In this document: one piece after another, positions 1 to 56,479 of the stretch
How positions within the stretch are numbered: position 1 is the stretch's first letter
Layout of the letters: each line of letters begins with the position of its first letter
NCBI GenBank assembly: GCA_964612685.1
Contig: CAZTCF010000002.1
Location: 212 to 64,211, forward strand
Direction: 5' to 3'
Length of the DNA stretch: 64,000 bases
From: Candidatus Woesearchaeota archaeon
GTDB lineage: Archaea > Nanobdellota > Nanobdellia > Pacearchaeales > GW2011-AR1
The notes under the pieces: model-generated
What the model saw: the letters and a program-made list of their open reading frames with translations, nothing else
Told to the model about the DNA's origin: nothing
The model's database searches: none
Made by a program: the position numbers and the translations under genes

Positions 1-3000
1 TATTCTGGGTTATTGTAAAGTTGAAAATATTACTATCATTTGTATATCCGCTCTTATTTGCAAATATTGAATAATTATTATAATAACTTCTTGTTCCAGC
101 ATTATTAACATACTCAGTAACTTCTTGTCTTGCTATCCAACCAGATGCATTTGTTTGTGCAGTGGACTGAAGAACACCTGTTGCATTATAAGCTGAAACA
201 TTTGCGTCTGAAACTGCACTTCCAGAACTATCATTTACATACGCCTGATAATACCATTTTCTTATTAATTCGTTGTCTGTTCCTCCAACAGTTTCACTAT
301 CATAAGAACAATTTATGAAAGTGTTATTCTTGCTTAAAGGAGTTGAAAATAAGTTTACATCAAATGTGGTTCCAGATATATCTATGCAGTCTCTGAAAGT
401 TGTCCAATTTACATTAACCATAAAAATACCTAGATTTCCTGATGCTCTCTGATTGATAAAAGTGTTATTGTAGTTAGAAAAAAGGTAAATTCCTTGCCCT
501 ATACTTGAAATTCCAGTATTATTTATTAAAGTATTATTGTTTGAAGAACCTGCAACATATATTCCAATTCCATTATTTACATTCATACCAGTATTATTTA
601 TCAAGATATTATTGCTGGAAGTTCCTAATACAATTCCAAAATTATCGGCAGCATAACTAGTTCCGTTATTTGATGTTAAAGTGTTATTATCTGAAGATTC
701 TTCTATGTAAATACCACTCGAGGAAGTACTTGTTGCTTTGTTTTCAGTTAAATTCATATATGAAGAATTGTAAATATAAATTGCCTGGCCACTAACCGAA
801 TTAGTTGTAGCATTGTTTCTAAGAAGAGTATTATTATTTGAAAATGCTAAAATGTAAATTCCTGATCCGGTATTTGAAGTTGCATTGTTGCCTATCAAAG
901 TATTATTAGAAGAGTAAGAATTGATAACAATGCCGCCAGAAGAACTACTTGTTGCATTATTACTTATTAAAGTATTATTAGTACTATTTCTAAGATAAAT
1001 TCCGTGGTTTAAATTAGAACTTGCATTACACCCAGAAATAAGATTATTGGATGCAGAGTCTATATAAAATCCATAACCATCATAAGTAGACTGGCCTGTA
1101 GAGTTATAAATAGAATTATTATTTCCATATATACCTTTCCCAGCGCTCGTGTTTGAGATTCCTGTAGAATTTATAATAGTTATATTTGAAGTATCAGTCC
1201 AGATTATAATTCCATGATACTCTTTTGTTCTGCCTGTTGAATTAACAACCCTTATTCCAGAACCGCCATTAATATCAATACCATGACAATTGCTAACATT
1301 GGTAGACACATTCTGTATTAATCCATAATCTGCCCCAATAGTAAAGAAAACCCCTGCTCTCCAAGGGTCTGCATTAGTCCAATTACCATCCAAGATTCTA
1401 CAATTTTTAACAGTTGTATTAAATTGATTTGTATAAACTCCCCTGGTCCCTATGGCTCCTCCTGTTGAGAAAGTTATCCAGTATCCATTACAATCAACGG
1501 TTACATTAGCAGCAGAAACTGTAAGGCATGTTCCCTGAGAGGAAATATTTTCAGTTAAAGTATATGTTTGCCCCTCGACATCTAATGTTCCAGAATTTCC
1601 AATTGTTGTACAATCTGCAGGACCTGGAATCTCTAAAGTCATGAAATCATCAACCTTATTCTGAGTTATTGTAAAATTAAACTCATTACTATCGTTAATA
1701 TATCCTATCTTACTTGCATTAACAGTATAATTATTGTAATAGCTTACTGTCCCAGAAGTATTCACATATTCGGTAATGTTTTGAACTAAAATATGTCCAG
1801 TTAAATTTGTTAAAGCAGTGAATTGAATATCTCCGGTAGTGTTGTATGCTGTAATATTTGCCCCCTCAACTGCATTTCCAGAACTATCATTTACATACGC
1901 TTTATAATACCATCTCCTTATAATCTGATTTCCTTCCCCCGTAGTATTTTCAGAATCATAAGAACAATTCAAGAAAATATTTCCAGTAGAACTAATTGTC
2001 TCAAATTCAGCATACACGTCATTAGTGCTTCCACTTACATAAATACAATCTGTTATGTTATTATAACTGCTGTCCTCAAAATGAAAACCATATCTTCCGG
2101 AAGTATTTGTATTTATAAAAATATTATTGTTTGAACTAGACTCAAAACGTATTGAATCTGAAGTAGCAATTGCAGTATGATTTATCAAAGTATTATTGCT
2201 TGAACCACTTGTTAACGCAGTGGCATATTGGGAAGATGAGATTACATTATTATTTATAAGAATATTTCTTGAAGAAGAAGAAATCCTTATTCCCTGATTA
2301 GAAGAAGCAAATGCACTATTATTTGTAAGATTAACATAATCTGAGCTAGATAAATAAATTGCCTGAGAATTACTTGTATTTACATAATTATTAAACAATG
2401 TAGAATTATCCCCATTATCTAGATAAATACCTCTTCTAGATAGATACCCTCCAGATCTATTCCCATCAATTATATTACAATTCCTTATTGTTGTATTAAA
2501 CTGATTTGTATAAATTCCATAACGTGCATCAACTCCATTTATGGAATAGTTAATCAATCCATTAGCACAATCAAAAGTATTATTCTGCCCACGGTCTATA
2601 TAAATTCCATGAGCACTACTGTTTATGTTTATATCTGTAAATGTATTGCCATGAGAATTATTTGTAACTAAAATACCTGCAATTGTAATATTATTAAAAG
2701 ATATGTACGTAAAATTACTATTAGTTGTTCCATTAACAATTAAACCATATTCACTTCCACCCGTTATGTTGTATAAAGTTATATTATCTGCATTTTCAAC
2801 ATATACATCTATTGGAAAATTAGAAAACTTACAATCTCTAATAGTAATATTTGAACTATTTATCAAAATACCTTTAGAATTTTCAACATTATCTCCGATT
2901 ATGTAGTATCCTCCACAATCTAAAGTTATATTTTGAGCTGTTATATTAAAACCATTTTCCAAGGAAGAAATATTTCCTGTTAAGGTACATGATTTATTTT

Positions 3001-3060
3001 CAATATCTAGAGAACCACATTCAGAACTTCCAGCACCAGGATTCAATATTATTCTTCTGT
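1..3060 (-). repeat. Intragenic tandem duplication of a roughly 1.5-1.65 kb beta-helix module within the giant gene, seen as two diverged copies (about 1640..3060 and about 1..1640)
   Basis: Parallel peptide landmarks sit about 1650 nt apart. NCSYDSE...RWYY(K/Q)AYVNDSSG appears near 1950 and near 300. (N/Y)xNDSN(E/I)FNFTITQN appears near 1650 and near 10. PG(P/A)...C...TLT(E/G)NISS appears near 3050 and near 1600. Confidence 0.6.
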
Positions 3061-6000
3061 CTTCTGTATTATTATCAAGAACATTGGAATTTCCATAGCT
3101 TGAATTAAATAAAACATCCAACAAGTATTCTTGATTGGGGGTTGTTGATGTAACGTTTATTGTCCAGTTCGGATAAAAAGATTCTCCCTCATTAAGAACT
3201 GCTGAAGATGTTTGTGGATTTGAGGCTCCTCTAGAACCATTGACTTTGATTTCAATAAAATCAACTTCGATAGAAGTAGTAAGAGAATCACTATTACCTT
3301 TTACAAGAATCTGAATTATTCCATCAGAACCAATTATATCATCTATTTTTAGGGAAGTAGTTTTGTTAAAGGTTAAATTATGATATTGGAAACCCTCTAA
3401 ATTAATTGAAGATACTTGCTTCCATGGATCACCCATGATGCCTCCGCTATAATTATATACAAAAACAGTAAATTGATAATCTGAACTAGAATATGATCTT
3501 CCATATATTGAGAGATTTATCTCATTTATGGAATCTTTTGACTCTAAAATTTTAAAATCAAATTTCTCATAAGGTTTATTCGATCCAAATCCAGATGGAA
3601 GGGAAGTTTTTGTAACAAATCCATCAATAAAAACTAGATTAGAATAACCTTCATTATAAAACTCATATTGATTATTAGGTTGAAATGAGACAAATGAAGA
3701 ACATGAGCCATTAGTAGCTTTATGTGTTGAAGAAGGATTAGTTATCCCACTAAAATTATAGACATATATATCCTCTCCACCACTTCCAAGGTTATAAAAA
3801 GGAGATCCTCCTTCACTAATATTAATATTTGTATCGGGAGAAGCACTTGAAAGATTATATCTCGCTGTCGCACTTACTGTTCCGCAATATGCTCCACCCA
3901 CACAAGTCACACTTGCATTTATTGTTAAATTAGTATTTCCAGTAAAGTATCCAGAATCATTTGCAGGAAGAATTATGCTAACATTTAAGATACCATAATA
4001 AGGAGTCGTTGTCAAAGTATAAACAGGTGTTGAATTATAATTTGGTGTTGAATAAGAATCTTTGAAATACCACCTATAACCTATAATCGCCCCACTAGTT
4101 GAATTCAATGTTTTTGTAACATTTGCCCAGGAAGGAGTTGAGGTGAAATTAACTGCACTATCATTCACCCAAGCCCCAGTATTATTAGTTGAGAAAATAT
4201 ATTGCCCATTTGGATGCAATGCAATATTATCAGTCACATTTATTGCAAAATTAGTTATTTGCCCTGCAAGAGTGTTATTAACTGAAACAGAATTATACTG
4301 GGGAGAAGTTAAATCAACAGGCTCTGCATATGTTATTTTTAACATACCTTGTGCTCCTGTTCCTCCAACCCCATTAGTTCCCCCTGCTTTTTCTCCTCCA
4401 CCTCCAGCTCCACCATAATTAAGTCCAGCATCTCCACTTGCGTCTGTGTTACCTGCACCTCCATCTCCTCCCCCAATTGAAGTTCCTATTCCTCCTGTAG
4501 CACTTGTACTATTTCCACCCCAACCAGTTGTTCCAGAACCTCCTCCTCCTCCTCCTCCTGATGAACTCCCAGTGTATCCATTTCCGCCCCCATAAATTGT
4601 GGTACCCACACCTCCAGAAATAGAACCTAAGCCTCCAGCCCCTGCAGCTTTATTAATTCCTCCTTTACCTCCTTCACCACCCATTGCAACAACATAATTT
4701 CCTGTAGAATTGAAGAAACTTGTATTATATCCTTGTGAACCATCACCTGTACCCCCCGTTATTGATGAAGCAATAAAAATGTTAAAAGTAGTCGAAGGAG
4801 TTACAGTTAAATTACGTTTAGCATACTGGCCACCTGCTCCGCCTCCTCCACCATAACCACTCGATATAGAACCTCCACCTGCTCCGCCTCCTCCCCAAGC
4901 TTCAATCATTATTTCAGTAACTTCGGTAGGAACCTGCCATGTGTTTGCACCAGTTGTAATATTAAATACTGCTATACATGTTCCTGAAACGCAACTTAAG
5001 TAATCTGGAGGATCAACAATATAATCAAACTCAACACTTCCTCCAATAATTCTCAAATCAAATGTATCTTGCTCTCCAATCAGACTTGTCAAGAATCTTT
5101 TGTTATAAGAATTATTAATAATTGGATTAAATTCGGCAATCAATGTGCTTTCATTCACTTCATAAATCTCAATCCTTGGTGTTCCCGAAACTATTCTTGG
5201 ATATACTGTTATATCCCTATCACTTGTCAAATTACTCTCAAAAGTAACTCTAACATAATCTCCATCAGGAATTTCCTCACTCCAAATATCATCTAATAGA
5301 ACAACCTCTTGGTAGATATCCGAAATAAAGTCTCTAGTTGAGTTAAGATGATGTGCAAAGATTATTACAATAACTTCTGCAAAAGCAGGATCTTCTGGAT
5401 TTAAAGTGAAATTATAAGTCTCTCCAGGAGTGATATCCATAACTTTAATCCATTCCCCATAACATGTTTGTTCAGTGAAATTCCAATCCTGACATTTGTA
5501 TAATTCATTACCCGTTGCAAATACAGTTACTGTAGCATTTGTATTTAAATGAGGATTTAATGCATAAACATTAGTAAAATTTTCTACTTCGGAAGGCTGA
5601 TCAATATCAATTATTCCTTCAGTGTAGTTTTCAATTAAAGTATTTTCATATTCAATTTGGAATATGGGATTTCCAACAGGATTTATTAAAATATCTTTCT
5701 CCCCTTCTTCAACAGATATTAATTCTGATTCAGTCATAGTTGAATTCATTTCAACTTCCTGACTTTCAGTATTATAGATTATAACTTCAGCTTCCTGAAA
5801 ATTTCCTTGTGCATCATTTAAAGACACATTCATCAATACAAGCGGAGGTAGAACTGTAATATTTCCTATTATTGAACCTAGATTATCTGAGCTATCATTT
5901 GCAAAAATTGTATAAGTGTAATTTCCTGCAGATAATCCAGAAGTATTAATTGTCCCGTTCCATAAATCATTGCTTGCAGGAGTTGTATAATTTACTTCAA

Positions 6001-9000
6001 ACCAAACTTCATATATCTTTAATGTTGACTCTGAATTATTAAGATGTATTTCTGTAAGAAGATTGAAATCTGCAAAACTCCAGTCCCTTTCTGATGTAAC
6101 ATCAAATTCTGTTATCTCTGGTGTTTCACTTGTTGAATTAAATTCATGGGTTAAACCTTGCTCTTCTCCTCCATTAGAGCTTGCCCAATGTAAATACCCT
6201 ATTGTGTCATAACTTAATTTAGAATGAATAACTTTTACCTTTACTGAATTTATTATACCTGCTACGCTCACTCCAGAAGTTTTTATTGTTAAGAGAGGAT
6301 TAACTGCATTTATTCCTGAAGAAGTATCATTATTATTATCATAAGAGTTAAGATAATTAACCACCCTGTTAGTTTCAATTGTACCTTTTGCAGCAGGCCT
6401 TATTATTGCAACATTTGAGATTGTTTGAGGATTTTGTCCTAATGAATAATTTAAATTATCTATCTCAATTATTGCTCCCTCAACTTCCAAATTATCTGTA
6501 ATATTTGCTGTTAAACTTAGGTTTTCTCCTTCTCTAATTGTTGACGGAATACTCACTGAATTTATTACAGGAACTTGAGATTCATTATAAGTTATGTTTA
6601 ACTGAGGTCTGATTGTAGCGTTAATATTATCACTTGAAGGGAAATGCCATTGTCCATGTCCGTTTTCACCATAAAGTATAATCCCATAATTTTCGTAAGT
6701 TCCATTAACCCAGTTCTGTACTAACTGAGTTATATCCAATGTATAATAAGTTCCTGCTGTTGTTAAATTTCTAATTGCCCATACTCTTGAATCAAAATCC
6801 CCTCCAGGGATATCCCAACTTTCTGTTCCGCTTCTGTTAGTCCAGGTTACTCCATCATAAGTATTCTGGCTATCCCCTGTACCCTCAATCCAGCTGTTAT
6901 TTATCCTATAAACACTTATGGGATTAGTTCCTGTTCCTGCAGAAGATAAATAGAAAGTAAGATTTGCATTAACAATATTTGCTGTTTCTGTTACATCGGA
7001 TAAATCAAATTCTAGCAACATTCTTTCTGTGTTACTTATTATCATAGAAGTAGATGCGCCAAAATTTCTGTTTGGAGTTGAACTATCAATATGAGCATCT
7101 TTTCCTTCTGTCCCTAATTGGATAGTTATCAAAAATGTCTGATTGGATAAATGAGGAACAATCCATTCAACATAATCATAAAATCCGTTATTATCTTTGT
7201 CTTCAACCCTCTCTGCAGGAAGGTAAACTTCTTCTTCAATCCAATATATTTTCAGTTCAGAAGGACTTCTTATATCCAAACTTTCACTTAAATTTGTAAA
7301 TGCTAAAACATTTTCATAATGAACCTCTTCAGAACCTGCAATTATTACTTTCTTTCCTTTTTCAGTTTCTTCTTCAGAAGAGTATGGTGCAGGAGTTTCA
7401 TACTCAATTTCATATAAGTCAGAATTATCTTCAATCAATACTTCTATTGAGTTTGATCTTTCTTTAATTTTTTTATTTTCAGTAAGAAGCTTCCCTTGGG
7501 AAGGACTCGACTCTTCTTTTTGAGAAGCTTCTTTTTCTGAATATGATTCCCTATCAATAATCTTGCTAACACTAATTTTCTCAGAACCCTTTGGAAGTTC
7601 AATTTTAACATTCCCTTTTTCAGGAAGTTCAATTTGCTTTTTCCATTTTACTGGCTGTCCAAGAACTGCATCATACTGAATAGTGTTTATTGTAATATTT
7701 TCCAAGATAATAGGAACTTCTTCCAGAATAATAGAATAATCAATACTCCCTAGCCTTAGTGTAGCATTTCCTTCTATCTCCACCCTTAAAGTATAAGAAG
7801 AATTTGTTAAACTCAATTTTTCAAGATTGCATGTATCTTCACAAACCCCATTAAAGATATTTTCAGTTAGAGACTCCTCCTGGGAAGGACTCGACTCTTC
7901 TTTTGAAGGAGTCTCTGTTTCTGAATATGATATATTGGATTGTGTTTCATTGCTTTCCTGTTCATAAGTAACATTTGTTTGAACTTCTCTCTCATTAGTT
8001 TCAATATCTTCTGTTTGATTTCTCTGGGGGTATGATTGATTTGTTTCAGTTAGAGACTCCTCCTGGGAAGGACTCGACTCTTCTTTTGAAGGAGTCTCTG
8101 TTTCTGAATATGAAATCGATTCGTTTTCTGTTTGAGGCGTATCATCCAAAGTCTTATCTAAACTTTCAGAAGCTTGAGGTTCCTCCTGGGAAGGACTCGA
8201 CTCTTCTTGCAAAGGAACCTCGCTCTCTATCTTCTCTTCTGAATATGATACTTCTGATGAAATTGTTTGAGAATTTGTAGTTTCAGTTAGAGACTCCTCC
8301 TGGGAAGGACTCGAATCTTCTTTTGAAGGAGTCTCTGTTTCTGAATATGAATCTTCTGAAGTAGTTGTCTGAGAATCTGTTGTTATTGTTTCGGTTTCTT
8401 CAATAATCATTCCGGTTAAAGGAGAATTATATTTTGGAGAACTTGATTTCGATTTAATCTTTGAACTATCCAATATTAACAAATCATTGAGATAAACTTT
8501 AATCTCTCCCTCTCCTTTTATCTCACCATTAATTTTAACTGAACTTAATTGTCCAGGATTTTCTAAGTTCAATTCATAATTTGTAGATTCATTAGTTATC
8601 AGTCCAATTATCTGTGAATACTCTTGTTCCTGAAATCCTTCACCCACAAAAAATCCTGTTAACCCAATACTAGAATAATCTAAAGAAAGAGCAGCAAAAA
8701 TAAACCCTCCTAAAAATAGAACTCCAAAAAATAAAGCTAAAACTCTGTTCCTTATTACCTTTGCCTTTTGTCTCTCGATCGCCTTTTCGCAGTTCTTAGA
8801 ATAATTTTCATAATAATCAACCCACTCTTTTATGTTTCTTCCATTGGTTTTTTTCGTGAGCGTCTCTACATATTTTGCCCCAGAAATCTGTTTATTTGCA
8901 TGTGCTTGATTTAATCTTTTTAAATAATCAACAAGCTCATTTTTTCTGCTTTGAGAAGCCTCTTTATTTCTTTGTAAACTACTAACTAGTGCCTTTGCTA

Positions 9001-9016
9001 ATCGAGTCCTTCCCAT
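1..9016 (-). CDS. Giant cell-surface protein (more than 3005 aa in window; C-terminus lies beyond the window start). Has N-terminal cytoplasmic region plus one TM helix, acidic tandem repeats, a Gly-rich tract and tandem parallel beta-helix (PbH1-like) modules
   Basis: Manual translation of the minus strand from ATG at 9016..9014 (preceded by in-frame TAA at 9022..9020) runs with no stop to position 2, in the frame whose top base is 1 mod 3. The protein begins MGRTRLAKALVSSLQRNKEAS..., with a hydrophobic helix VLALFFGVLFLGGFIFAALSL. Repeats of SYSETETPSKEESSPSQEESLTE follow, then a Gly-rich block (GGGGAGGGSISSGYGGGGGAGG), then many N-x-[ST]-rich beta-helix-like repeats (NITLYNITGGSEYGLIVNGTTNSNFTYISFNNITIAG...). 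All listed ORFs in 1..9000 are short and fall in other frames. It is absent from the ORF track because it is incomplete. Confidence 0.8.
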   Translation of the reverse strand, partial: MGRTRLAKALVSSLQRNKEASQSRKNELVDYLKRLNQAHANKQISGAKYVETLTKKTNGRNIKEWVDYYENYSKNCEKAIERQKAKVIRNRVLALFFGVLFLGGFIFAALSLDYSSIGLTGFFVGEGFQEQEYSQIIGLITNESTNYELNLENPGQLSSVKINGEIKGEGEIKVYLNDLLILDSSKIKSKSSSPKYNSPLTGMIIEETETITTDSQTTTSEDSYSETETPSKEDSSPSQEESLTETTNSQTISSEVSYSEEKIESEVPLQEESSPSQEEPQASESLDKTLDDTPQTENESISYSETETPSKEESSPSQEESLTETNQSYPQRNQTEDIETNEREVQTNVTYEQESNETQSNISYSETETPSKEESSPSQEESLTENIFNGVCEDTCNLEKLSLTNSSYTLRVEIEGNATLRLGSIDYSIILEEVPIILENITINTIQYDAVLGQPVKWKKQIELPEKGNVKIELPKGSEKISVSKIIDRESYSEKEASQKEESSPSQGKLLTENKKIKERSNSIEVLIEDNSDLYEIEYETPAPYSSEEETEKGKKVIIAGSEEVHYENVLAFTNLSESLDIRSPSELKIYWIEEEVYLPAERVEDKDNNGFYDYVEWIVPHLSNQTFLITIQLGTEGKDAHIDSSTPNRNFGASTSMIISNTERMLLEFDLSDVTETANIVNANLTFYLSSAGTGTNPISVYRINNSWIEGTGDSQNTYDGVTWTNRSGTESWDIPGGDFDSRVWAIRNLTTAGTYYTLDITQLVQNWVNGTYENYGIILYGENGHGQWHFPSSDNINATIRPQLNITYNESQVPVINSVSIPSTIREGENLSLTANITDNLEVEGAIIEIDNLNYSLGQNPQTISNVAIIRPAAKGTIETNRVVNYLNSYDNNNDTSSGINAVNPLLTIKTSGVSVAGIINSVKVKVIHSKLSYDTIGYLHWASSNGGEEQGLTHEFNSTSETPEITEFDVTSERDWSFADFNLLTEIHLNNSESTLKIYEVWFEVNYTTPASNDLWNGTINTSGLSAGNYTYTIFANDSSDNLGSIIGNITVLPPLVLMNVSLNDAQGNFQEAEVIIYNTESQEVEMNSTMTESELISVEEGEKDILINPVGNPIFQIEYENTLIENYTEGIIDIDQPSEVENFTNVYALNPHLNTNATVTVFATGNELYKCQDWNFTEQTCYGEWIKVMDITPGETYNFTLNPEDPAFAEVIVIIFAHHLNSTRDFISDIYQEVVLLDDIWSEEIPDGDYVRVTFESNLTSDRDITVYPRIVSGTPRIEIYEVNESTLIAEFNPIINNSYNKRFLTSLIGEQDTFDLRIIGGSVEFDYIVDPPDYLSCVSGTCIAVFNITTGANTWQVPTEVTEIMIEAWGGGGAGGGSISSGYGGGGGAGGQYAKRNLTVTPSTTFNIFIASSITGGTGDGSQGYNTSFFNSTGNYVVAMGGEGGKGGINKAAGAGGLGSISGGVGTTIYGGGNGYTGSSSGGGGGGGSGTTGWGGNSTSATGGIGTSIGGGDGGAGNTDASGDAGLNYGGAGGGGEKAGGTNGVGGTGAQGMLKITYAEPVDLTSPQYNSVSVNNTLAGQITNFAINVTDNIALHPNGQYIFSTNNTGAWVNDSAVNFTSTPSWANVTKTLNSTSGAIIGYRWYFKDSYSTPNYNSTPVYTLTTTPYYGILNVSIILPANDSGYFTGNTNLTINASVTCVGGAYCGTVSATARYNLSSASPDTNINISEGGSPFYNLGSGGEDIYVYNFSGITNPSSTHKATNGSCSSFVSFQPNNQYEFYNEGYSNLVFIDGFVTKTSLPSGFGSNKPYEKFDFKILESKDSINEINLSIYGRSYSSSDYQFTVFVYNYSGGIMGDPWKQVSSINLEGFQYHNLTFNKTTSLKIDDIIGSDGIIQILVKGNSDSLTTSIEVDFIEIKVNGSRGASNPQTSSAVLNEGESFYPNWTINVTSTTPNQEYLLDVLFNSSYGNSNVLDNNTEDRRIILNPGAGSSECGSLDIENKSCTLTGNISSLENGFNITAQNITLDCGGYYIIGDNVENSKGILINSSNITIRDCKFSNFPIDVYVENADNITLYNITGGSEYGLIVNGTTNSNFTYISFNNITIAGILVTNNSHGNTFTDININSSAHGIYIDRGQNNTFDCANGLINYSINGVDARYGIYTNQFNTTIRNCNIIDGNRSGGYLSRRGIYLDNGDNSTLFNNYVNTSNSQAIYLSSSDYVNLTNNSAFASSNQGIRISSSSRNILINNNVISSSQYATALTSGSSNNTLINHTAIATSDSIRFESSSNNNIFINTNTSGRYGFHFEDSSYNNITDCIYVSGSTNDVYAEFETISSTGNIFLNCSYDSENTTGEGNQIIRRWYYKAYVNDSSGNAVEGANITAYNTTGDIQFTALTNLTGHILVQNITEYVNTSGTVSYYNNYTVNASKIGYINDSNEFNFTITQNKVDDFMTLEIPGPADCTTIGNSGTLDVEGQTYTLTENISSQGTCLTVSAANVTVDCNGYWITFSTGGAIGTRGVYTNQFNTTVKNCRILDGNWTNADPWRAGVFFTIGADYGLIQNVSTNVSNCHGIDINGGSGIRVVNSTGRTKEYHGIIIWTDTSNITIINSTGISNTSAGKGIYGNNNSIYNSTGQSTYDGYGFYIDSASNNLISGCNASSNLNHGIYLRNSTNNTLISNNATSSSSGGIVINSYSSNNTLIGNNATSNTGSGIYILAFSNNNTLLRNNATTNSVSGQAIYIYNSSYMNLTENKATSTSSSGIYIEESSDNNTLTSNNGTSYAADNFGIVLGTSSNNILINNTGMNVNNGIGIYVAGSSNNNTLINNTGISSIGQGIYLFSNYNNTFINQRASGNLGIFMVNVNWTTFRDCIDISGTTFDVNLFSTPLSKNNTFINCSYDSETVGGTDNELIRKWYYQAYVNDSSGSAVSDANVSAYNATGVLQSTAQTNASGWIARQEVTEYVNNAGTRSYYNNYSIFANKSGYTNDSNIFNFTITQN
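7480..8350 (-). repeat. In-frame tandem coding repeats (about 66-nt conserved core, at least 5 copies, variable spacing) inside the giant gene, encoding an acidic Ser/Glu/Thr/Pro-rich unit
   Basis: The core ...agactcctcctgggaaggactcgactcttcttttgaaggagtctctgtttctgaatatga... recurs near 7491, 7861, 8041, 8181 and 8281. Each copy translates to ISYSETETPSKEESSPSQEESLTE on the minus strand. Confidence 0.8.
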
Positions 9017-9119
9017 TACTTATTATTTATGTAATATACCTTATAAATATATCTATTATTTATTAAAAATACTTATTATATATGTATAAATAATAAACAG
9101 AAATTTGTAGTTATAATAA

Positions 9120-9132
9120 CATTTATAAAACA
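9120..9132 (+). promoter_or_regulatory. Putative archaeal TATA box for a leaderless glyS transcript; the giant gene diverges from the same AT-rich region
   Basis: tttataaaa lies about 25 nt upstream of the GlyRS ATG at 9151. Additional TATA-like ttataaat boxes at 9040-9060 face the minus-strand giant gene. Confidence 0.3.
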
Positions 9133-9150
9133 AAATGTAGTTATCAAAAC

Positions 9151-25534: not shown

Positions 25535-27133
25535 TTATCTGGGATCAACAACTTTTCCAATGAACAGAATATTTCCAGTTTCCTTTTCCTGAATTATAAA
25601 TATAAACGGATGATCTGCCCTAAACTCTATAAATCTTGGCATTGCAGCTCCAAAACCCATACTGACTATAGTTGCTGCAGCTGCTTCTGTGCCTTCTTCA
25701 TAAACATCAATGTAAGCCTTGTGCAGGACTTCATCAATGTAAAGCATTTCTGTTCCATCTATTCCTGAAAAATCTGCACCTGGCCAGACAAAAGGAAGGC
25801 TCATCCCCATACTTTTTAGATAATCTGTTAATGAATAAGTTGTTTCAAAATGATATTTTGGAAGATAAATAAAAACTATTTCAGGTTCCATTTCGCTTCT
25901 CCACTCCTTGAGTTTTTCTTCACTTAAAATTGATTCTAAGTGTGTAATGTTGCTGAGAGAGAGGTTTTCATTTAATCCAAATTCATATTTATAGTAATTG
26001 TATTCATCATCTTCAGAAGCTTCTGTTCTTGGAAGAAGTACTAGCATGGATATTTTGTCTCCCTTATAAGGCATTTCAAGTATCTGAATTCCATCAGATT
26101 CGCAGTAGTTGAATTTCAATTCATCATCCCTAAGTTGCATCGTAGGAATTTGTACTTTTTTACCTGATTCAAGAGTAAAATCTTTTTGTTTTGTATCTTT
26201 TTTATCAAACTGATGTTCCCACTTTCCTTTGAAATAAATAGCATTAGTCAGAACAGCGCGTGTTAAAGGATCAAACATGTTAGGAGAAGCTATATTCTTT
26301 ATTTTATTGTTTGTATTCTTTGAGACCCAATTATTTATTTCAGAACTTGCTTGCCCGGGATTTTTTACAAAATCAAGAGTATTAACGTTTCCTAGATAAT
26401 ACCTGCTTATTGTATCTTTGTACTCCTGTAAAAAAGGATAATCTTCCTGTAACCAGATTGCATTTGCTGTACTTAATTGGTATTTTCCTCCTCCTTTATT
26501 TATTGTGTTTAACATATTTGCATAAGAAGATCTTCTTAAAGAATCCTCTTCAGGGAAATAGAATACATTTTGGATTTCATTAGCTGTTTCTCCTCTGGCC
26601 CCTTCATATACCATTGCCATTGCGTTCGATATACTCCATGGAGAAAAAAAGATATTTCCTTCAGAATCATCTTTTATTTTAGAATATAAATCAATAGAAA
26701 ACTGATTGTTCGCTCTTACTGCCTCTTCTACTCCTTCTGCTGTTGCTCCTCTATCATCTGCAGCTTTAACAAAAATATCACTCATTCCAAGATTAAAAAA
26801 ACTATACAACAAAATTCCTATTAATATTATTAAACTTAAAACAATCAATTTCTTTTTATTCCAGTTTATCTTGTTTTCGAGGATCCCAAAAAATGCAATT
26901 AAGCTACAAGAAATAAGATAAAACCAAAGAATATCTAATATTAATCCAAGAAGCATTCCAATTATTCCAAACATGCCAAAGAAAAATATAGGAAATATCA
27001 TTATATATAATATAATAAGGGGTATTTTTGTCAACCCCGTACTTTCAGATTTGAAAAACAAAAAAACCGCAAAAGCCAAAAGAAGAATTGTCAAAGCTAT
27101 TTTTTTCCAGTTACATTTAAAGAATTCACCCAT
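25535..27133 (-). CDS. Serpin (inhibitory-type serine protease inhibitor) fused to an N-terminal polytopic membrane domain (about 3-4 TM helices)
   Basis: Serpin core motifs NAIYFKGKWEHQFDKKDT, a hinge/RCL EEGTEAAAATIVSMGFGAAMPRF and a C-terminal FRADHPFIFIIQEKETGNILFIGKVVDP. The N-terminal 120 aa is strongly hydrophobic (IALTILLLAFAVFLFF, IPLIILYIMIFPIFFFGMFGIIGMLLGLIL, LIVLSLIILIGILLYSFF). Confidence 0.8.
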   Translation of the reverse strand: MGEFFKCNWKKIALTILLLAFAVFLFFKSESTGLTKIPLIILYIMIFPIFFFGMFGIIGMLLGLILDILWFYLISCSLIAFFGILENKINWNKKKLIVLSLIILIGILLYSFFNLGMSDIFVKAADDRGATAEGVEEAVRANNQFSIDLYSKIKDDSEGNIFFSPWSISNAMAMVYEGARGETANEIQNVFYFPEEDSLRRSSYANMLNTINKGGGKYQLSTANAIWLQEDYPFLQEYKDTISRYYLGNVNTLDFVKNPGQASSEINNWVSKNTNNKIKNIASPNMFDPLTRAVLTNAIYFKGKWEHQFDKKDTKQKDFTLESGKKVQIPTMQLRDDELKFNYCESDGIQILEMPYKGDKISMLVLLPRTEASEDDEYNYYKYEFGLNENLSLSNITHLESILSEEKLKEWRSEMEPEIVFIYLPKYHFETTYSLTDYLKSMGMSLPFVWPGADFSGIDGTEMLYIDEVLHKAYIDVYEEGTEAAAATIVSMGFGAAMPRFIEFRADHPFIFIIQEKETGNILFIGKVVDPR

Positions 27134-27214: not shown

Positions 27215-27260
27215 CTAAAACCTCTCCCTCTTCCCATACTTCGTATGCAGCAACTTTTCT
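27215..27260 (-). repeat. Copy 3 of the conserved 3-prime-end element, here inside the coding 3-prime end of hydA (encodes ...LLHTKYGKRERF*)
   Basis: cctctccctcttcccatacttcgtatgcagcaacttttctgc with aattaatt upstream. About 90% identical to copies 1 and 2 over about 35 nt. Confidence 0.8.
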
Positions 27261-28921
27261 GCTTTCTTGCTAAGTGGCTGTCCTAGATACTTCTTGTAAA
27301 TATCTTTCACAATTGGATTTTCATGAGAACGTCTGTATTCACGCATACTGTCTTGCTTGTAAAGTGCTTGAGCTCTAAGTGTTAGCACTTTATCATCAGA
27401 GTATATTGGTTGTCCTCCTCCACCCACACATCCTCCAGGACAAGCCATCATTTCAATGAAATCATATTTGTCTTTATTTCTTAGAAGCTTTCTTATATTT
27501 GCTCCTCCAGACGCTGTAGCATAACGTATTTTTCTTCCATTAAGCATTATTGTCCCCTCTCTTATACTGCTATCTTTTGTTCTTAGATTTTGAAATTCAA
27601 CTTTTTCGAGACGTTTTTTTGTTGAGAGTTCATATGCTGTTCTTAATGCAGCTTCCATAACCCCTCCAGCTGCCCCAAAAATATCTCCTGCCCCACTTGC
27701 TAATCCCAGTGTTGGATCAAAATTGGAATCTTCTAGATTTGCAAAATCAATATTTTTTTGTTTTATTAATCTTCCAAGCTCTCTTGTTGTTAAAACATAA
27801 TCAACTCCTGTTTCTAATTCTGGTCTTGTTGACTCAAACTTCTTTGCTGTACATGGCATTATGCTCACCACGATTATATCCTTAGGATTAATCTTTGCAA
27901 GTTCTGCATAATAACTTTTTATTAACATCCCAGACATTTCATGAGGAGATTTACATGTTGACATATTAGGTATTAATTCTGGATAAAAGAATTCCATCAT
28001 TAATATCCAAGATGGACAGCAAGTTGTAATTAAAGGAAGCACTGCTTTTTTCCCCTGTTTCAATCTTTTAAGAAGTTCAGCTGATTCTTCCATTATTGTC
28101 ATATCTGCTCCTAAGTCAACATCAAAAACTTTATTGAAACCACATTTCTTTAAAGCAGAAACCATTTTTCCTGTAACTAAAGTTCCTGCAGGCATATCAA
28201 ATAATTCTCCTAGGCTTGCCCTTACTGCAGGAGCTGTCTGAGCTACAACATGCTTTTTAGGATTGTTTAATGCTTTGATAACTTCAGGAAGATGTGTACG
28301 TTCACTTATAGCCCCAACAGGACAATTAATTAAACACTGTCCACATTCAATACATGCAACATCTTCTAATTTCTTTTCATCGTATGGGGTTACATGTTCA
28401 TTATGAGCTCTACTTGAAAAGTCAATAGCATATATTTCTTGAATTTTACCACACACCTGAACACATTTACCACAATTAATACATTTATTGTTGTCTCTTA
28501 TTATTGCAGCACCTAAATCTGGATGATAATCTTTAATTGATTTGAATCTTTCATATTCAATTCCAATCTGGTCATACACTTCCTTTGCTTCAAAATCCCC
28601 TCCTAATTCTTTATATTCGATATCTGGACTCATTAATTCAAGATTGATTTTTCTTGATTTGATTATTTTTTCAGAATTAGTTACAATTACTGCATTCTCA
28701 ATAGGCTTTGTTGAACAAGACGTAACTAATTTTCCATTCATCTCAACTAAACACACCCTACATCTTGCTTCAGGAAAAAGATTTTTGTGGAAGCAGAGGG
28801 TTGGAATTTTGATATCGTTTTCTTTACAAATTGTTAAAATTGTTTTATTTGGGTCCACATCAAGTTGTTTGTTGTCTAGGGTTATTTTCATTTTAATGTT
28901 TGTAAAACTCTCCTTGCCCAT
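27215..28921 (-). CDS. hydA: [FeFe]-hydrogenase catalytic subunit HydA, multi-cluster form (N-terminal 2Fe-2S + His-ligated 4Fe-4S + 2x4Fe-4S + H-cluster domain)
   Basis: H-cluster motifs L1 ITTCCPSW, L2 IMPCTAKKFE and L3 IEMMACPGGCVGGGGQP. N-terminal plant-ferredoxin-like C-x11-C-x2-C...C, NuoG-like H-x3-C-x2-C-x5-C (HPDLG...CINCGKCVQVC), and CIECGQCLINCP ferredoxin motif. Confidence 0.85.
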   Translation of the reverse strand: MGKESFTNIKMKITLDNKQLDVDPNKTILTICKENDIKIPTLCFHKNLFPEARCRVCLVEMNGKLVTSCSTKPIENAVIVTNSEKIIKSRKINLELMSPDIEYKELGGDFEAKEVYDQIGIEYERFKSIKDYHPDLGAAIIRDNNKCINCGKCVQVCGKIQEIYAIDFSSRAHNEHVTPYDEKKLEDVACIECGQCLINCPVGAISERTHLPEVIKALNNPKKHVVAQTAPAVRASLGELFDMPAGTLVTGKMVSALKKCGFNKVFDVDLGADMTIMEESAELLKRLKQGKKAVLPLITTCCPSWILMMEFFYPELIPNMSTCKSPHEMSGMLIKSYYAELAKINPKDIIVVSIMPCTAKKFESTRPELETGVDYVLTTRELGRLIKQKNIDFANLEDSNFDPTLGLASGAGDIFGAAGGVMEAALRTAYELSTKKRLEKVEFQNLRTKDSSIREGTIMLNGRKIRYATASGGANIRKLLRNKDKYDFIEMMACPGGCVGGGGQPIYSDDKVLTLRAQALYKQDSMREYRRSHENPIVKDIYKKYLGQPLSKKAEKLLHTKYGKRERF

Positions 28922-29106
28922 TTTCTATCAGACTCTTTTTCTTTTTCAGATAATTTTGAATAAGGTTGTTTTATTTGTTTTTTCCATCTTTCTATATTTT
29001 CTTTTGTAAGATTCTTAAGCATATAATTAGTCCAGTGGGCCCATTGCTTATGTTCTAGATTAGCTAACTTTTCTATTAACGTTTTATCTTCTTGATTTAT
29101 TTTCAT
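28888..29106 (-). CDS. Small Trp/Lys/Glu-rich protein (72 aa from MKINQEDKTL...) encoded between hydB and hydA, translationally coupled
   Basis: ATG at 29106..29104 overlaps the hydB TGA stop (29105..29103) as ATGA. Its 3-prime end overlaps the hydA start by 34 nt. The track's longer 28888..29190 ORF extends into the hydB coding region. Confidence 0.4.
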   Translation of the reverse strand: MKINQEDKTLIEKLANLEHKQWAHWTNYMLKNLTKENIERWKKQIKQPYSKLSEKEKESDRKWARRVLQTLK

Positions 29107-39977: not shown

Positions 39978-39980
39978 AAT

Positions 39981-40080
39981 AGCCCCACCAGGATTCGAAC
40001 CTGGGTCCCGGCCTCTCTTCATCTTATCTATTTTCAAGATACCAAAGGGCCGTATACTTGACCACTGTACTATGGGGCTA
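39981..40080 (-). tRNA. tRNA-Gln (anticodon TTG) containing a 27-nt intron at the canonical 37/38 position
   Basis: Minus strand AGCCCCA-TA-GTAC-AGTGGTCAA-GTAT-A-CGGCC-CTTTGG[TATCTTGAAAATAGATAAGATGAAGAG]A-GGCCG-GGAC-CCAGG-TTCGAAT-CCTGG-TGGGGCT-A. The exons give a 73-nt cloverleaf with archaeal A1-U72. Confidence 0.7.
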
Positions 40081-56351: not shown

Positions 56352-56479
56352 TTTTTCCTCTTTTTTAAAATCTTAAAAATATTACAAATTTACATTTGCT
56401 ATTTTATAATTATTCCAATAAAATAAAAAGAATTAATAAATGTTTAGAATAAACCCTAAAAACTAAATTAACTTACAAC

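What the first reader, a model, noticed from the sequence alone, without database searches (positions are those of the whole stretch)
1..9016. Giant (more than 3000 aa, still open at the window edge) membrane-anchored surface protein with modular repeats, missing from the ORF track
One uninterrupted minus-strand frame spans the first 9 kb. The architecture is a short cytoplasmic N-terminus, one TM helix, an acidic S/E/T/P-rich tandem repeat stalk, a Gly-rich segment, and then at least two tandem roughly 500-aa modules of N-x-S/T-rich parallel beta-helix repeats, each ending in a small Ig/carboxypeptidase-regulatory-like segment. Giant beta-helix surface proteins are typical adhesin-like tools of episymbiotic DPANN/CPR cells. 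The dense N-x-S/T sequons suggest heavy N-glycosylation, which is notable next to the glycan-processing island
Basis: seen in the sequence. Interest (0 to 1): 0.6.

Follow-up and report, generated by a model that had tools for sequence, protein, structure and literature searches.

The report
Giant surface protein with DNA-binding tail
The 9-kb open frame is the first 70% of a real 4280-residue, heavily glycosylation-marked surface protein of a tiny symbiotic (DPANN) archaeon. Its whole family ends in a conserved DNA-binding tail that has a matching pair of conserved DNA boxes on the gene's own promoter, which suggests a cell-surface protein wired directly to gene control.

Summary
Window 9016..2 (minus strand) is one stop-free frame of 3005 codons. 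The public source contig shows the full gene is 4280 aa. N-x-S/T sequons are twice the composition expectation (z=12.7).

- The protein belongs to a large family restricted to Pacearchaeota and Woesearchaeota, with about 2000 cluster representatives.
- The family has a conserved frame: an N-terminal helical hairpin plus TM, a mosaic hypervariable ectodomain, a conserved membrane-proximal domain, a short hydrophobic segment with a polybasic cluster, and a Lys-rich tail with two sigma-70-region-4/LuxR-type HTH domains.
- The gene heads a conserved four-gene surface-protein cluster.
- Its leaderless promoter carries two copies of an 18-bp pseudo-palindromic box flanking the TATA box, at fixed positions in about 24 species and almost nowhere else.

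My best reading is an adhesin-like receptor whose cytoplasmic HTH tail acts on its own promoter. That step is inferred, not shown. I found no specific link to the neighbouring sugar-metabolism genes. Length polymorphism lies in the distal modules, not in the stalk.

The parts
2..9016 (-). In-window part (residues 1-3005) of a 4280-aa gene. The remaining 1275 codons lie beyond window position 1 (L001 19017-22843).
9070..9086 (-). Promoter box 1 (TACATATATAATAAGTA; family consensus ATACATAAATAATAAGTA), at -70..-54 from the ATG, upstream of BRE/TATA.
   Evidence: It sits at the same position in about 24 species. These are the only two matches in the 64-kb window.
9040..9047 (-). TATA-like element TTTATAAG, at -31..-24 from the ATG. 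This implies a leaderless or nearly leaderless transcript.
   Evidence: TATA-like motifs start at -27..-32 in 12 of the 21 TATA-like motif occurrences found upstream of the window's genes.
9017..9033 (-). Promoter box 2 (TACATAAATAATAAGTA), abutting the ATG, between the TATA box and the inferred transcription start. This is a repressor-type operator position.
8744..9016 (-). Residues 1-91: conserved Lys-rich cytoplasmic N-terminal domain, predicted as an antiparallel alpha-helical hairpin whose second helix runs into TM1.
   Evidence: alignment A2; AF2 pLDDT 84; composition
8681..8743 (-). Residues 92-112: TM helix 1 (signal anchor).
   Evidence: hydropathy; longest uncharged run has a family median of 21 residues
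8432..8680 (-). Residues 113-195: conserved first ectodomain segment (the ..TGF.. motif and a small beta-rich unit).
   Evidence: alignment A2 and the N-terminal sequences of homologues
7478..8431 (-). Residues 196-513: acidic S/T/E/P-rich stalk with five dispersed copies of a 24-aa motif (..YSETETPSKEESSPSQEESLTE..). It is interrupted by a segment of about 100 aa (residues about 386-487) that is not S/T/E/P-rich and whose fold was not tested.
   Evidence: repeat family D1
6590..7102 (-). Residues 639-809: DNRLRE / disaggregatase-related repeat domain.
   Evidence: NCBIfam NF033679 83 bits (cut-off 34); Pfam PF06848 47.6 bits (cut-off 33.9)
4328..4957 (-). Residues 1354-1563: glycine-rich domain (Pfam Gly_rich_2).
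   Evidence: PF21722 37.8 bits (cut-off 24.3); 20-34% Gly
1652..3079 (-). Residues about 1980-2455: parallel beta-helix module 1, including its C-terminal segment of about 90 aa (residues 2367-2455, window 1652-1918). By repeat homology this segment corresponds to the CarboxypepD_reg-like (Ig-like) end of module 2; its own fold was not tested.
   Evidence: NosD/Beta_helix hits; repeat anchors
2..1651 (-). Residues 2456-3005: parallel beta-helix module 2 (552-aa unit, ends at residue 3007 just outside the window). Its CarboxypepD_reg-like end is residues 2919-3005 (window 2-262).
   Evidence: Beta_helix 92-110 bits; DNA repeats 1656 nt apart; weak similarity to AlgG

Best explanation
The frame is the 5' 70% of a genuine 4280-aa gene of a Pacearchaeota/Woesearchaeota-type DPANN archaeon.

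Inferred topology: the product is inserted with both ends in the cytoplasm.
- An N-terminal helical-hairpin domain runs into TM1.
- An ectodomain of about 3960 aa follows. It is Lys-poor and Asn/Ser/Thr-rich and carries about 200 N-glycosylation sequons. In order it contains an acidic stalk, a DNRLRE domain, a Gly-rich domain, three beta-helix-plus-Ig modules, further beta domains and a conserved membrane-proximal domain.
- A short hydrophobic segment with a polybasic stop-transfer cluster comes next.
- The protein ends in a Lys-rich tail of 186 aa with two tandem sigma-70-region-4/LuxR-type HTH domains.

Family pattern: the ectodomain is the variable, host- or substrate-facing part, an adhesin or glycan-binding 'cargo' that is swapped module by module between lineages. 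The two cytoplasmic ends, the membrane-proximal domain, the three downstream surface-protein genes and the promoter are conserved.

Proposed mechanism: the tandem HTH tail recognises the two 17-18-bp pseudo-palindromic boxes (half-sites TACWTA, 5-bp spacer). These bracket the TATA box of the gene's own leaderless promoter, so expression of the locus is tied to the state of the surface protein. The tail could act while membrane-tethered, or after proteolytic release.

Shown: the gene, the domains, the family frame, the operon, the boxes and their specificity.
Inferred: the topology of the tail, DNA binding by the tail, that the boxes are its target, and any signal dependence.
For: Gene reality.

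Domains.

Family frame:
- 77 proteins of 899-4645 aa carry both the N-terminal and the C-terminal frame. The only N-frame proteins without the C-frame are truncated or partial.
- A profile of the C-terminal frame finds 2062 cluster representatives at E<=1e-10, with the match almost always at the extreme C-terminus.
- 140 genome loci were confirmed. The 80 listed are almost all named Pacearchaeota, Woesearchaeota or Nanoarchaeota, and each appears to come from a different assembly.

HTH identity:
- Sigma70_r4_2 matches 19 of 19 tails (best 7e-12). This protein's tail alone scores 32.2 bits against a cut-off of 25.7.
- The AF2 model has pLDDT 83-93 over the HTHs.
- Local Foldseek matches of 42-46 residues at 0.6-0.8 A rmsd hit DNA-bound RcsB, SigR region 4 and the archaeal repressor EnfR (36% identity).

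Cytoplasmic location of the tail:
- A median of 8 K/R in the 15 residues after the hydrophobic segment.
- Sequons are 0.54 per 100 aa in tails against 5.06 in ectodomains. Lys is 17% against 3%, the same as the N-terminal domain (16%).
- Free-standing soluble paralogues exist that are made only of this HTH module.

Operator:
- The box occurs twice, at -17/-18 and -69/-70 from the ATG, in about 24 species.
- It has only 2 hits in the 64-kb window.
- There are 54 PWM hits in 765 kb of related loci, nearly all of them these pairs.
- 38 of 118 usable exact occurrences in a capped metagenome-wide scan directly precede a family N-terminal ORF.
- The TATA position fits the genome's leaderless norm.
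- Both recognition helices (RDERTIWTAY and RDQRNIWTIY) and the boxes are nearly invariant across the same loci.

Operon: all three downstream genes are in the same order in 46 of 59 loci with enough flank. The first is 50% identical to residues 3823-4085 of the giant protein.
Against: - No experiment or expression data exist.
- The second hydrophobic segment is unusually short. The W-to-polybasic stretch has a median of 14 residues and the longest uncharged run a median of 10, against 21 for TM1. AF2 gives it pLDDT below 50 with no helix. Membrane passage is therefore not established.
- The link between the boxes and the tail rests on co-conservation only. Too little variation exists for a covariation test.
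- A separate factor could bind the boxes, for example a soluble paralogue of the tail.
- The divergent tRNA-synthetase promoter next door also has a 'box-TATA-box' layout with a different box. That layout therefore does not by itself point to this protein.
- The whole-model Foldseek E-values are not significant; only local HTH superpositions are good.
- The adhesin or glycan-binding role of the ectodomain is inferred from domain types alone.
Confidence: 0.55

Rival explanations
1. Plain giant adhesin or surface fibre. The conserved promoter boxes are bound by a different, soluble transcription factor. The HTH tail has another job, such as anchoring to a cytoplasmic partner or to the nucleoid, or sorting and assembly of the operon's surface complex.
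For: The ectodomain has typical adhesin-like content (beta-helix, Ig-like, DNRLRE). Soluble four-HTH paralogues exist that could be the real box-binding factors. There is no covariation evidence tying the tail to the boxes.
Against: The tail's two recognition helices are among the most conserved parts of a protein whose remainder is hypervariable. The boxes are essentially confined to this gene's promoter. No soluble paralogue was found in the 64-kb window or in the other fetched DNA, including the 33-kb and 32-kb loci L001 and L002. The rest of the genome was not available.
Confidence: 0.25
2. It is the S-layer protein, or an S-layer anchoring component, of these archaea, and the downstream genes are the other lattice or anchor parts. 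The heavy glycosylation and apparent single copy reflect a structural envelope role.
For: About one locus per genome in the 80 listed assemblies. A conserved cluster with three further secreted or membrane-anchored proteins of constant size. Dense sequons. From general knowledge, archaeal S-layer anchors such as SlaB have been predicted to contain beta-helix-like domains.
Against: Lattice-forming proteins keep their architecture. Here length varies from 0.9 to 5.9 kaa and the domain content is mosaic, even between genomes with 91-95% identical flanks. No S-layer family model matched.
Confidence: 0.1
3. There is no second membrane pass. The C-terminal hydrophobic/polybasic stretch and the HTH tail are extracellular or membrane-surface associated, for example binding extracellular DNA or acidic host envelopes.
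For: The hydrophobic run is only 8-13 residues and AF2 does not model it as a helix. The secreted paralogue ends right after the ..W-x-I-K strand. The strand W-T-I-R-I therefore belongs to the folded ectodomain, which leaves only about 8 hydrophobic residues.
Against: Tail composition and sequon density match the cytoplasmic N-terminal domain, not the ectodomain. A cluster of about 8 K/R is a strong stop-transfer or positive-inside signal (general knowledge). The same module occurs in soluble proteins without signal peptides.
Confidence: 0.07
4. Assembly artefact, chimeric ORF or decaying pseudogene.
For: Giant repetitive genes are prone to misassembly in metagenome bins.
Against: The same 4280-aa sequence is recorded from NCBI and IMG sources, with one residue different. 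A second genome has a collinear, 88-100% identical first 1620 residues and the same ends. dN/dS is 0.19. There is no stop in 4280 codons of 31% GC DNA.
Confidence: 0.01

Closest known systems
Giant adhesin-like surface proteins of DPANN archaea and methanogens. Examples are the proteins of up to 3000 aa with a lytic-transglycosylase domain (fam00969) of Woesearchaeota/Pacearchaeota (PMC8204110), the adhesin-like proteins of Methanobrevibacter/Methanosphaera (PMC11532034), and, from my own knowledge, the SPEARE proteins of Nanohaloarchaeota.
   Same: Very large, modular, secreted or membrane-anchored proteins with beta-helix and Ig-like domains, lineage-specific and presumed to mediate cell-cell contact. 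One fam00969-like gene (2474 aa, faint SLT hit) lies 6.6 kb downstream on the same contig.
   Different: None of these is described with a conserved cytoplasmic N-terminal hairpin, a C-terminal hydrophobic/polybasic segment, a tandem HTH tail, a fixed three-gene downstream cluster or a dedicated promoter box pair.
Membrane-bound one-component transcription regulators (ToxR, CadC, TcpP of bacteria). From general knowledge.
   Same: A single polypeptide joins an extracytoplasmic sensing region to a cytoplasmic DNA-binding domain across the membrane. This is the 'works like' analogy.
   Different: Those have an N-terminal OmpR-type winged HTH, one TM and a small periplasmic domain. Here the HTHs are sigma-4/LuxR-type, tandem and C-terminal. 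The ectodomain is about 4000 aa, both ends are cytoplasmic and the organism is an archaeon. This protein is not a member.
Signalling by regulated proteolysis of membrane-tethered factors (ECF sigma/anti-sigma with site-2 protease; eukaryotic Notch, SREBP, ATF6). From general knowledge.
   Same: A giant or extracytoplasmic receptor part with a cytoplasmic transcription module next to the membrane. The N-in domain + TM + outside topology resembles anti-sigma factors, and the tail resembles sigma region 4.
   Different: No cleavage site, protease partner or release has been shown. The N-terminal domain matches no anti-sigma family. The tail lacks sigma region 2. A weak Peptidase_M50-like ORF in the window is not evidence of coupling.
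Archaeal LuxR/sigma-4-type HTH regulators of the Tfx/EnfR kind (EnfR, PDB 8HNO/8HNP, PMC10570040).
   Same: The closest solved relative of HTH2: 36% identity over 42 residues, 0.6-0.7 A rmsd. It is an archaeal DNA-binding repressor.
   Different: EnfR is a small soluble dimer with a different C-terminal fold. The sequence E-value is only 0.004-0.3, so the match is at the level of the HTH superfamily.
CASH-type right-handed parallel beta-helix proteins (NosD, AlgG C5-epimerase, pectate-lyase-like).
   Same: The in-window modules match Pfam Beta_helix and NosD and TIGR03804 above their cut-offs, and match AlgG weakly.
   Different: No catalytic residues were tested. The NosD subfamily model scores 21 bits against a cut-off of 300. 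This is a fold-level relationship only.

Membership tests
Parallel beta-helix repeat proteins (Pfam PF13229 Beta_helix / PF05048 NosD; TIGR03804) | Match to the repeat models above the curated cut-offs | tested here: met
   Window part: PF13229 92.4 bits (cut-off 25.9), PF05048 60.7 (23.6), TIGR03804 53.7 (19.45)
NosD copper-chaperone subfamily (TIGR04247) | Full-length subfamily model score of at least 300 bits | tested here: not met
   21.1 bits
DNRLRE / disaggregatase-related repeat domain | Match above the cut-off of NF033679 / PF06848 | tested here: met
   83.2 bits (cut-off 34) and 47.6 bits (cut-off 33.9), residues 639-809
Gly_rich_2 (PF21722) | Match above the gathering score | tested here: met
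   37.8 bits against 24.3, residues 1354-1563
CarboxypepD_reg-like Ig fold at the module ends (PF13620) | Match above the gathering score of 32.3 | tested here: inconclusive
   23 bits (window part) and 27.5 bits (full length), both below the cut-off. The sister protein P0002 scores 38.2 bits, above it.
Sigma-70 region 4 / LuxR-type HTH (PF08281) | Sequence match above the cut-off, and a three-helix HTH fold that superposes on known members | tested here: met
   The tail alone scores 32.2 bits against 25.7, and 19 of 19 family tails match. Local rmsd is 0.6-0.8 A to RcsB, SigR region 4 and EnfR. This feature lies outside the window (residues 4150-4280).
Sigma-70 family sigma factor | Presence of region 2 (core binding and -10 recognition) together with region 4; TIGR02937 at or above 42.9 bits | tested here: not met
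   TIGR02937 scores 15.2 bits. There is no region 2 hit, and two region-4-like units sit in tandem.
Anti-sigma factor (N-terminal cytoplasmic anti-sigma domain + TM) | Recognisable anti-sigma domain (for example zf-HC2 or RskA) N-terminal to the TM | tested here: not met
   No Pfam or NCBIfam hit in residues 1-91. The AF2 model is a simple helical hairpin with only generic coiled-coil matches. The shared topology remains only an analogy.
C-terminal sorting signals (PGF-CTERM/archaeosortase, LPXTG/sortase type) | Signature motif + TM helix + basic cluster at the extreme C-terminus | tested here: not met
   A conserved motif (YST..GSW), a short hydrophobic run and a polybasic cluster exist, but 186 further residues follow. 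No PGF-CTERM-type model matched.
N-glycosylated archaeal surface protein | Sequon enrichment in the extracellular part; an AglB oligosaccharyltransferase in the genome; glycans actually attached | tested here: inconclusive
   Enrichment is met (z=12.7; 5.1 against 0.39 per 100 aa). No AglB was seen in the ORFs scanned in the window, and the rest of the genome is not available here. Attachment of glycans cannot be tested with these tools.
S-layer protein | Lattice formation, high abundance, conserved architecture within a lineage | not testable with these tools
   Only indirect evidence: the architecture is not conserved and no S-layer family model matched.

The most novel reading that the evidence does not exclude
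A Notch-like or ToxR-like pathway in DPANN archaea. A giant, hypervariable, glycosylated adhesion receptor reports contact with the host or substrate directly to its own leaderless promoter. It does so through a membrane-proximal tandem sigma-4-type HTH tail that binds two dedicated operator boxes bracketing the TATA box. The tail may be held in check by the conserved N-terminal hairpin, or released by intramembrane or juxtamembrane cleavage. This would also explain the puzzling 'sigma-70-like genes without anti-sigma factors' reported in Woesearchaeota (PMC8204110).
Probability: 0.3. Interest if true: 0.85.

Novelty: new variant of a known kind. Interest (0 to 1): 0.72.

Why it matters
DPANN archaea make up a large share of archaeal diversity and mostly depend on other cells. 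How they recognise and respond to hosts is unknown, and almost none are cultured.

This locus defines a family with thousands of members that appears to occur about once per genome in Pacearchaeota and Woesearchaeota. In one polypeptide it joins the most variable surface structure of the cell to one of the most conserved DNA-binding modules of the lineage. It also has a matching, highly specific promoter element.

That yields simple, decisive tests: binding of the tail to the box, the topology of the tail, and whether the tail is cleaved. The tests can be run with recombinant protein and synthetic DNA, without cultivation. If the link holds, it would be, as far as the literature I could search shows, the first membrane-tethered transcription factor system described in archaea. 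It would also offer a handle on host-contact signalling in ultra-small symbionts.

Even if the regulatory link fails, the conserved frame, the operon and the box pair are useful markers for finding and comparing these hypervariable host-interaction genes.

Tried and rejected
1. Exact-DNA scans for the window's first 53 bases in genome contigs and metagenome contigs found nothing. The source was recovered instead through the protein search.

2. Tandem Repeats Finder found no array in the gene. The stalk repeats are dispersed.

3. Whole-protein BLAST self-comparison and comparison with P0002 gave only long gapped alignments. I replaced it with motif anchors and 100-aa tiles.

4. Fold search of the N-terminal domain gave only generic coiled-coil hairpins such as AcrA, MexA, HlyD and FadA. 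It gave no functional lead, so an anti-sigma-like identity is unsupported.

5. Fold search of the whole tail model gave no significant global hit; only local HTH superpositions were good.

6. A covariation test between box variants and recognition helices was not possible, because both are nearly invariant.

7. I tested whether the second upstream repeat (ATAACTACA) is a general promoter element. It is not: 31 matches against 22 expected at one mismatch, and the exact pair occurs only in this intergenic region.

8. A dN/dS control on the neighbouring synthetase gene failed on a script error. A nucleotide-identity comparison of the flanks was used instead.

9. Pfam and NCBIfam scans of the three downstream proteins gave nothing above noise. 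A homologue search with the 565-aa protein returned only 'hypothetical protein' entries of constant length.

10. Literature searches for this architecture found no description. The library searched is limited to open-access papers and preprints.
Full report
**1. Observation.**
Translating window 9016..2 on the minus strand gives 3005 codons without a stop. The other five frames of the same 9 kb stay open for at most 46-112 codons. With the base composition of the coding strand, the log-probability of no stop in 3005 codons is about -260. The ATG at 9016 follows a 134-bp AT-rich spacer that separates the gene from a divergent class-II aminoacyl-tRNA synthetase gene at 9151. The frame is missing from the ORF list only because that tool drops ORFs that run off the source.

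**2. Source and full length.**
Exact-DNA scans of two collections found nothing. A protein search, however, returned a 100%-identical 4280-aa protein on NCBI contig JAKQKP010000002.1 (GCA_029560575.1, 240 kb). A second copy from IMG differs from it by one residue. The window is the reverse complement of that contig and differs at 1 base in 19,016. The window therefore holds residues 1-3005, and 1275 more codons lie beyond position 1.

A related genome (GCA_964412025.1, titled Candidatus Woesearchaeota archaeon) has a 4645-aa version. Over the collinear first 1615 codons dN/dS is 0.19, so the gene is under purifying selection.

The contig is archaeal. It carries RadA, TFIIB, LSM, S8e, eIF2-alpha and a 100-nt intron-containing tRNA. 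Proteins in the same 90% cluster as its RadA are named Pacearchaeota or Diapherotrites.

**3. Architecture inside the window.**

| Residues | Feature | Evidence |
|---|---|---|
| 1-91 | Lys-rich domain | |
| 92-112 | The only strong hydrophobic segment | |
| 196-513 | Acidic S/T/E/P-rich region | |
| 639-809 | DNRLRE / disaggregatase-related domain | |
| 1354-1563 | Pfam Gly_rich_2 | |
| about 1980-2455 and 2456-3007 | Two beta-helix modules, 1656 nt (552 aa) apart at DNA level | |

- The acidic region has five dispersed copies of a 24-aa motif. The 73-nt DNA repeats are 66-99% identical to the reference copy and spaced 114-384 nt apart. TRF finds no tandem array.
- Each beta-helix module ends in a segment of about 90 aa with a sub-threshold CarboxypepD_reg match. 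The sister protein's match is above threshold.
- The nearest solved relative of the helices is the AlgG C5-epimerase, and the match is weak.
- Residues 810-1353 and 1564-1979 match no family.

**4. Glycosylation signal.**
The ectodomain has 204 N-x-S/T sequons. Shuffles that preserve composition give 100 +/- 8 (z=12.7), and shuffling within 50-aa blocks gives the same result. N-x-T is favoured 2.6-fold. The other 45 ORFs of the window average 0.39 sequons per 100 aa, against 5.1 here. This supports selection for N-glycosylation sites. No AglB was seen among the ORFs I scanned in the window.

The neighbouring 'island' is GAPDH, PGK, a NagB/6PGL-like protein, GH130, a GH100/GDE-like protein, GT4, PIG-L, PfkB, DeoC and TIM. 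This is central and cytoplasmic sugar metabolism, with no specific link to this protein.

**5.
The remaining 1275 residues add the following:
- a third beta-helix module;
- a weak Big_13-like region;
- a region of about 425 aa that is absent from the sister strain;
- a conserved membrane-proximal domain;
- the sequence ..YSTRDTGSWTIRIFLVLVTFG-KRRRKKKEKR..;
- a 186-aa tail with two HTH units (LGALEALVKYMKENLNMNYAEIARKLGRDERTIWTAYKKA and LTILEAVVLYLKEKGKKYSEIGKLLNRDQRNIWTIYSKA).

About two thirds of the 51 homologues share both this C-terminal frame and the N-terminal frame (MGRTR..YVE..HKK.DGRN..EW..YY). Their middle parts are unrelated to one another (LamG, Big_13, beta-helix and others). Alignments A1 (C-terminal frame) and A2 (N-terminal frame) show 55% and 44% mean column identity.

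Among all proteins collected, 77 carry both frames, at 899-4645 aa. The four with only the N-terminal frame are truncated, and most with only the C-terminal frame are fragments. A profile of A1 finds 2462 representatives of 50%-identity clusters (2062 at E<=1e-10). The match is almost always at the extreme C-terminus, in proteins of up to 5919 aa. In species-representative genomes it confirms 140 loci. The 80 listed appear to come from 80 different assemblies, almost all named Pacearchaeota, Woesearchaeota or Nanoarchaeota.

**6. What the tail is.**
Sigma70_r4_2 matches all 19 tails tested. This tail alone scores 32.2 bits against a cut-off of 25.7. The AF2 model has pLDDT 83-93 over both HTHs. 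Local superpositions of 42-46 residues at 0.6-0.8 A rmsd fall on DNA-bound RcsB, SigR region 4 and the archaeal repressor EnfR (8HNO/8HNP, 36% identity; PMC10570040). The protein is not a sigma factor: it has no region 2, and TIGR02937 scores 15 bits against a cut-off of 42.9. Soluble paralogues of 320-370 aa consist of two copies of the same helical + HTH1 + HTH2 unit and have no hydrophobic segment.

**7. Topology.**
The N-terminal domain is confidently predicted (pLDDT 84) as a helical hairpin whose second helix continues into TM1. Fold search gives only generic hairpins.

The C-terminal hydrophobic segment is short. From the conserved Trp to the polybasic cluster the median is 14 residues. 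The longest uncharged run has a median of 10, against 21 for TM1. It is followed by a median of 8 K/R in 15 residues, and AF2 does not model it. The secreted downstream paralogue ends right after the equivalent ..W-I-I-K strand, so only about 8 hydrophobic residues lie beyond the folded ectodomain.

Evidence that the tail is nevertheless cytoplasmic comes from 47 full-length members:

| Region | Sequons per 100 aa | Lys (%) |
|---|---|---|
| N-terminal domain | 0.0 | 16.5 |
| Ectodomain | 5.06 | 3.3 |
| Tail | 0.54 | 17.3 |

The existence of soluble paralogues points the same way. I take the tail to be cytoplasmic, at roughly 85% confidence. How so short a segment spans the membrane is unexplained.

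**8. Promoter boxes.**
I aligned the DNA upstream of family genes whose starts fall inside fetched loci. An 18-bp box with consensus ATACATAAATAATAAGTA appears at -17/-18 and again at -69/-70 from the ATG in about 24 species. It is a pseudo-palindrome, TACATA-N5-TAAGTA. A TTTATAAG element lies between the two copies. In the window, box 2 is 9017-9033, the TATA element is 9040-9047 and box 1 is 9070-9086.

Specificity:
- These are the only two matches in 64 kb; 0.49 are expected at up to 2 mismatches.
- A PWM scan of 765 kb from 80 other loci gives 54 hits, nearly all of them these pairs on the gene's strand. None lies before the downstream genes.
- In a row-capped exact scan of the metagenome collection, 38 of 118 usable occurrences directly precede a family N-terminal ORF.

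TATA-like motifs start at -27..-32 in 12 of the 21 TATA-like occurrences found upstream of the window's genes. Leaderless transcripts therefore seem to be the norm, and box 2 sits between the TATA box and the start. In archaea that is the classic repressor position (general knowledge). Box 1 lies upstream of BRE/TATA, about five helical turns away from box 2. Both the boxes and the two recognition helices are nearly invariant across the same loci. This is co-conservation, and there is too little variation to test covariation.

**9. Operon.**
Three genes follow the giant gene directly.
- A 307-aa secreted protein, 50% identical to residues 3823-4085 of the giant protein (E=4e-75).
- A 176-aa protein with a signal sequence and a C-terminal anchor.
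- A 565-aa protein with a signal sequence, beta-rich regions, a Gly run and a C-terminal anchor.

All three occur in this order in 46 of 59 loci that have at least 4 kb of downstream sequence. None has a known family. The 565-aa family is constant in length and is annotated only as hypothetical. The divergent synthetase gene is also a conserved neighbour, in 17 of 24 loci. All of these genes lie outside the window or at its edge.

**10. Variation.**
Between the two related genomes the flanks are 91-95% identical at DNA level, and the first 4.9 kb of the gene is collinear. The middle of the gene is 67-80% identical and rearranged. At protein level the sister strain differs as follows:
- it has an insertion of about 230-250 aa after residue 1620;
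- it has four beta-helix modules instead of three;
- it lacks residues about 3400-3825;
- its last 455 residues are 75-89% identical.

The stalk does not differ in length.

**11. Interpretation.**
Shown: a real giant gene; an adhesin-like, sequon-rich mosaic ectodomain; a lineage-wide conserved frame with a sigma-4/LuxR-type tandem HTH tail; a conserved four-gene cluster; and a dedicated pair of promoter boxes.

Inferred: the tail is cytoplasmic and binds those boxes, so that the surface protein regulates, or reports to, its own promoter, either while tethered or after cleavage. My confidence in the whole chain is 0.55. The gene and architecture part stands at about 0.95, and the tail-operator link at about 0.45.

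The main rival is that another factor binds the boxes, possibly a soluble paralogue, and that the tail has another role. An S-layer role, an extracellular tail and an artefact are less likely, for the reasons given under each.

**12. Literature.**
Castelle et al. 2021 (PMC8204110) reported sigma-70-like genes in Woesearchaeota with no anti-sigma factors and an unclear mechanism. The same paper reported giant lytic-transglycosylase proteins specific to Woesearchaeota and Pacearchaeota. The second kind matches the other giant gene on this contig. Whether the first corresponds to this HTH module was not tested. My searches found no description of the architecture reported here. The library is limited, so 'undescribed' is provisional.

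Noticed in passing
window 9106-9114 and 9136-9144 (minus strand), TATA-like TTTATAAA at 9122-9129: The divergent aminoacyl-tRNA synthetase gene (ATG at 9151) has its own 'box-TATA-box' layout, with two exact ATAACTACA repeats bracketing its TATA. In many other species the same position carries two copies of TAGGCACTAC, in some loci inverted. The synthetase is a conserved divergent neighbour of the giant gene in 17 of 24 loci.
   Followed up: partly
L001 22895-26088 (outside the window, just beyond window position 1): Three conserved downstream genes of 307, 176 and 565 aa, all with signal sequences and no known family. The first is a secreted copy of the giant protein's membrane-proximal domain. 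Together with the giant gene they form a cluster conserved in 46 of 59 loci.
   Followed up: partly
L001 29452-32843 (outside the window): A second giant gene (2474 aa, with a faint lytic-transglycosylase SLT hit) lies 6.6 kb downstream on the opposite strand. It probably corresponds to the fam00969 giant proteins described for Woesearchaeota/Pacearchaeota in PMC8204110.
   Followed up: no
proteins P0159, P0166, P0184, P0191, P0195 and others: Soluble proteins of 320-370 aa built from two copies of the same helical + HTH1 + HTH2 unit as the giant protein's tail, with no hydrophobic segment. They may be free transcription factors of the same type. Their genomic context could not be looked up.
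   Followed up: partly
window 39980-40079 (minus strand): A 100-nt tRNA found by Rfam (53.8 bits) but missed by ARAGORN, presumably because it contains an intron. This is consistent with an archaeal genome.
   Followed up: no
window 25535-27133 (minus strand): A 532-aa serpin (Pfam Serpin, E=1.6e-115) with an N-terminal extension of about 140 aa. Such a protein is uncommon in archaea.
   Followed up: no
window 27215-30239 (minus strand): An [FeFe]-hydrogenase large subunit fused to the small-subunit domain (568 aa, 20 Cys), next to a NuoF-like flavoprotein. This suggests a fermentative, H2-evolving metabolism in this DPANN archaeon.
   Followed up: no
window 61537-62190 (+), 49341-50180 (-), 54153-58768 (-), 63044-63976 (-): A weak Peptidase_M50 (site-2 protease) match (23.3 bits, below the 27.2 cut-off); a prepilin peptidase (A24); a T2SSE-type ATPase next to a DUF2207-like membrane protein; and a C25 (gingipain-like) peptidase. 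These are surface-assembly and protease genes that could matter for processing of surface proteins. No link was tested.
   Followed up: no
window 1137: There is a single-base difference between the window and the NCBI record in 19,016 compared bases. It changes residue 2627 from Ile (both public copies) to Lys.
   Followed up: yes
window 32996-35221 (minus strand): A 741-aa protein that joins a GT4 glycosyltransferase to a C-terminal region with weak GH88 / C5-epimerase-like matches. This is an unusual fusion.
   Followed up: no
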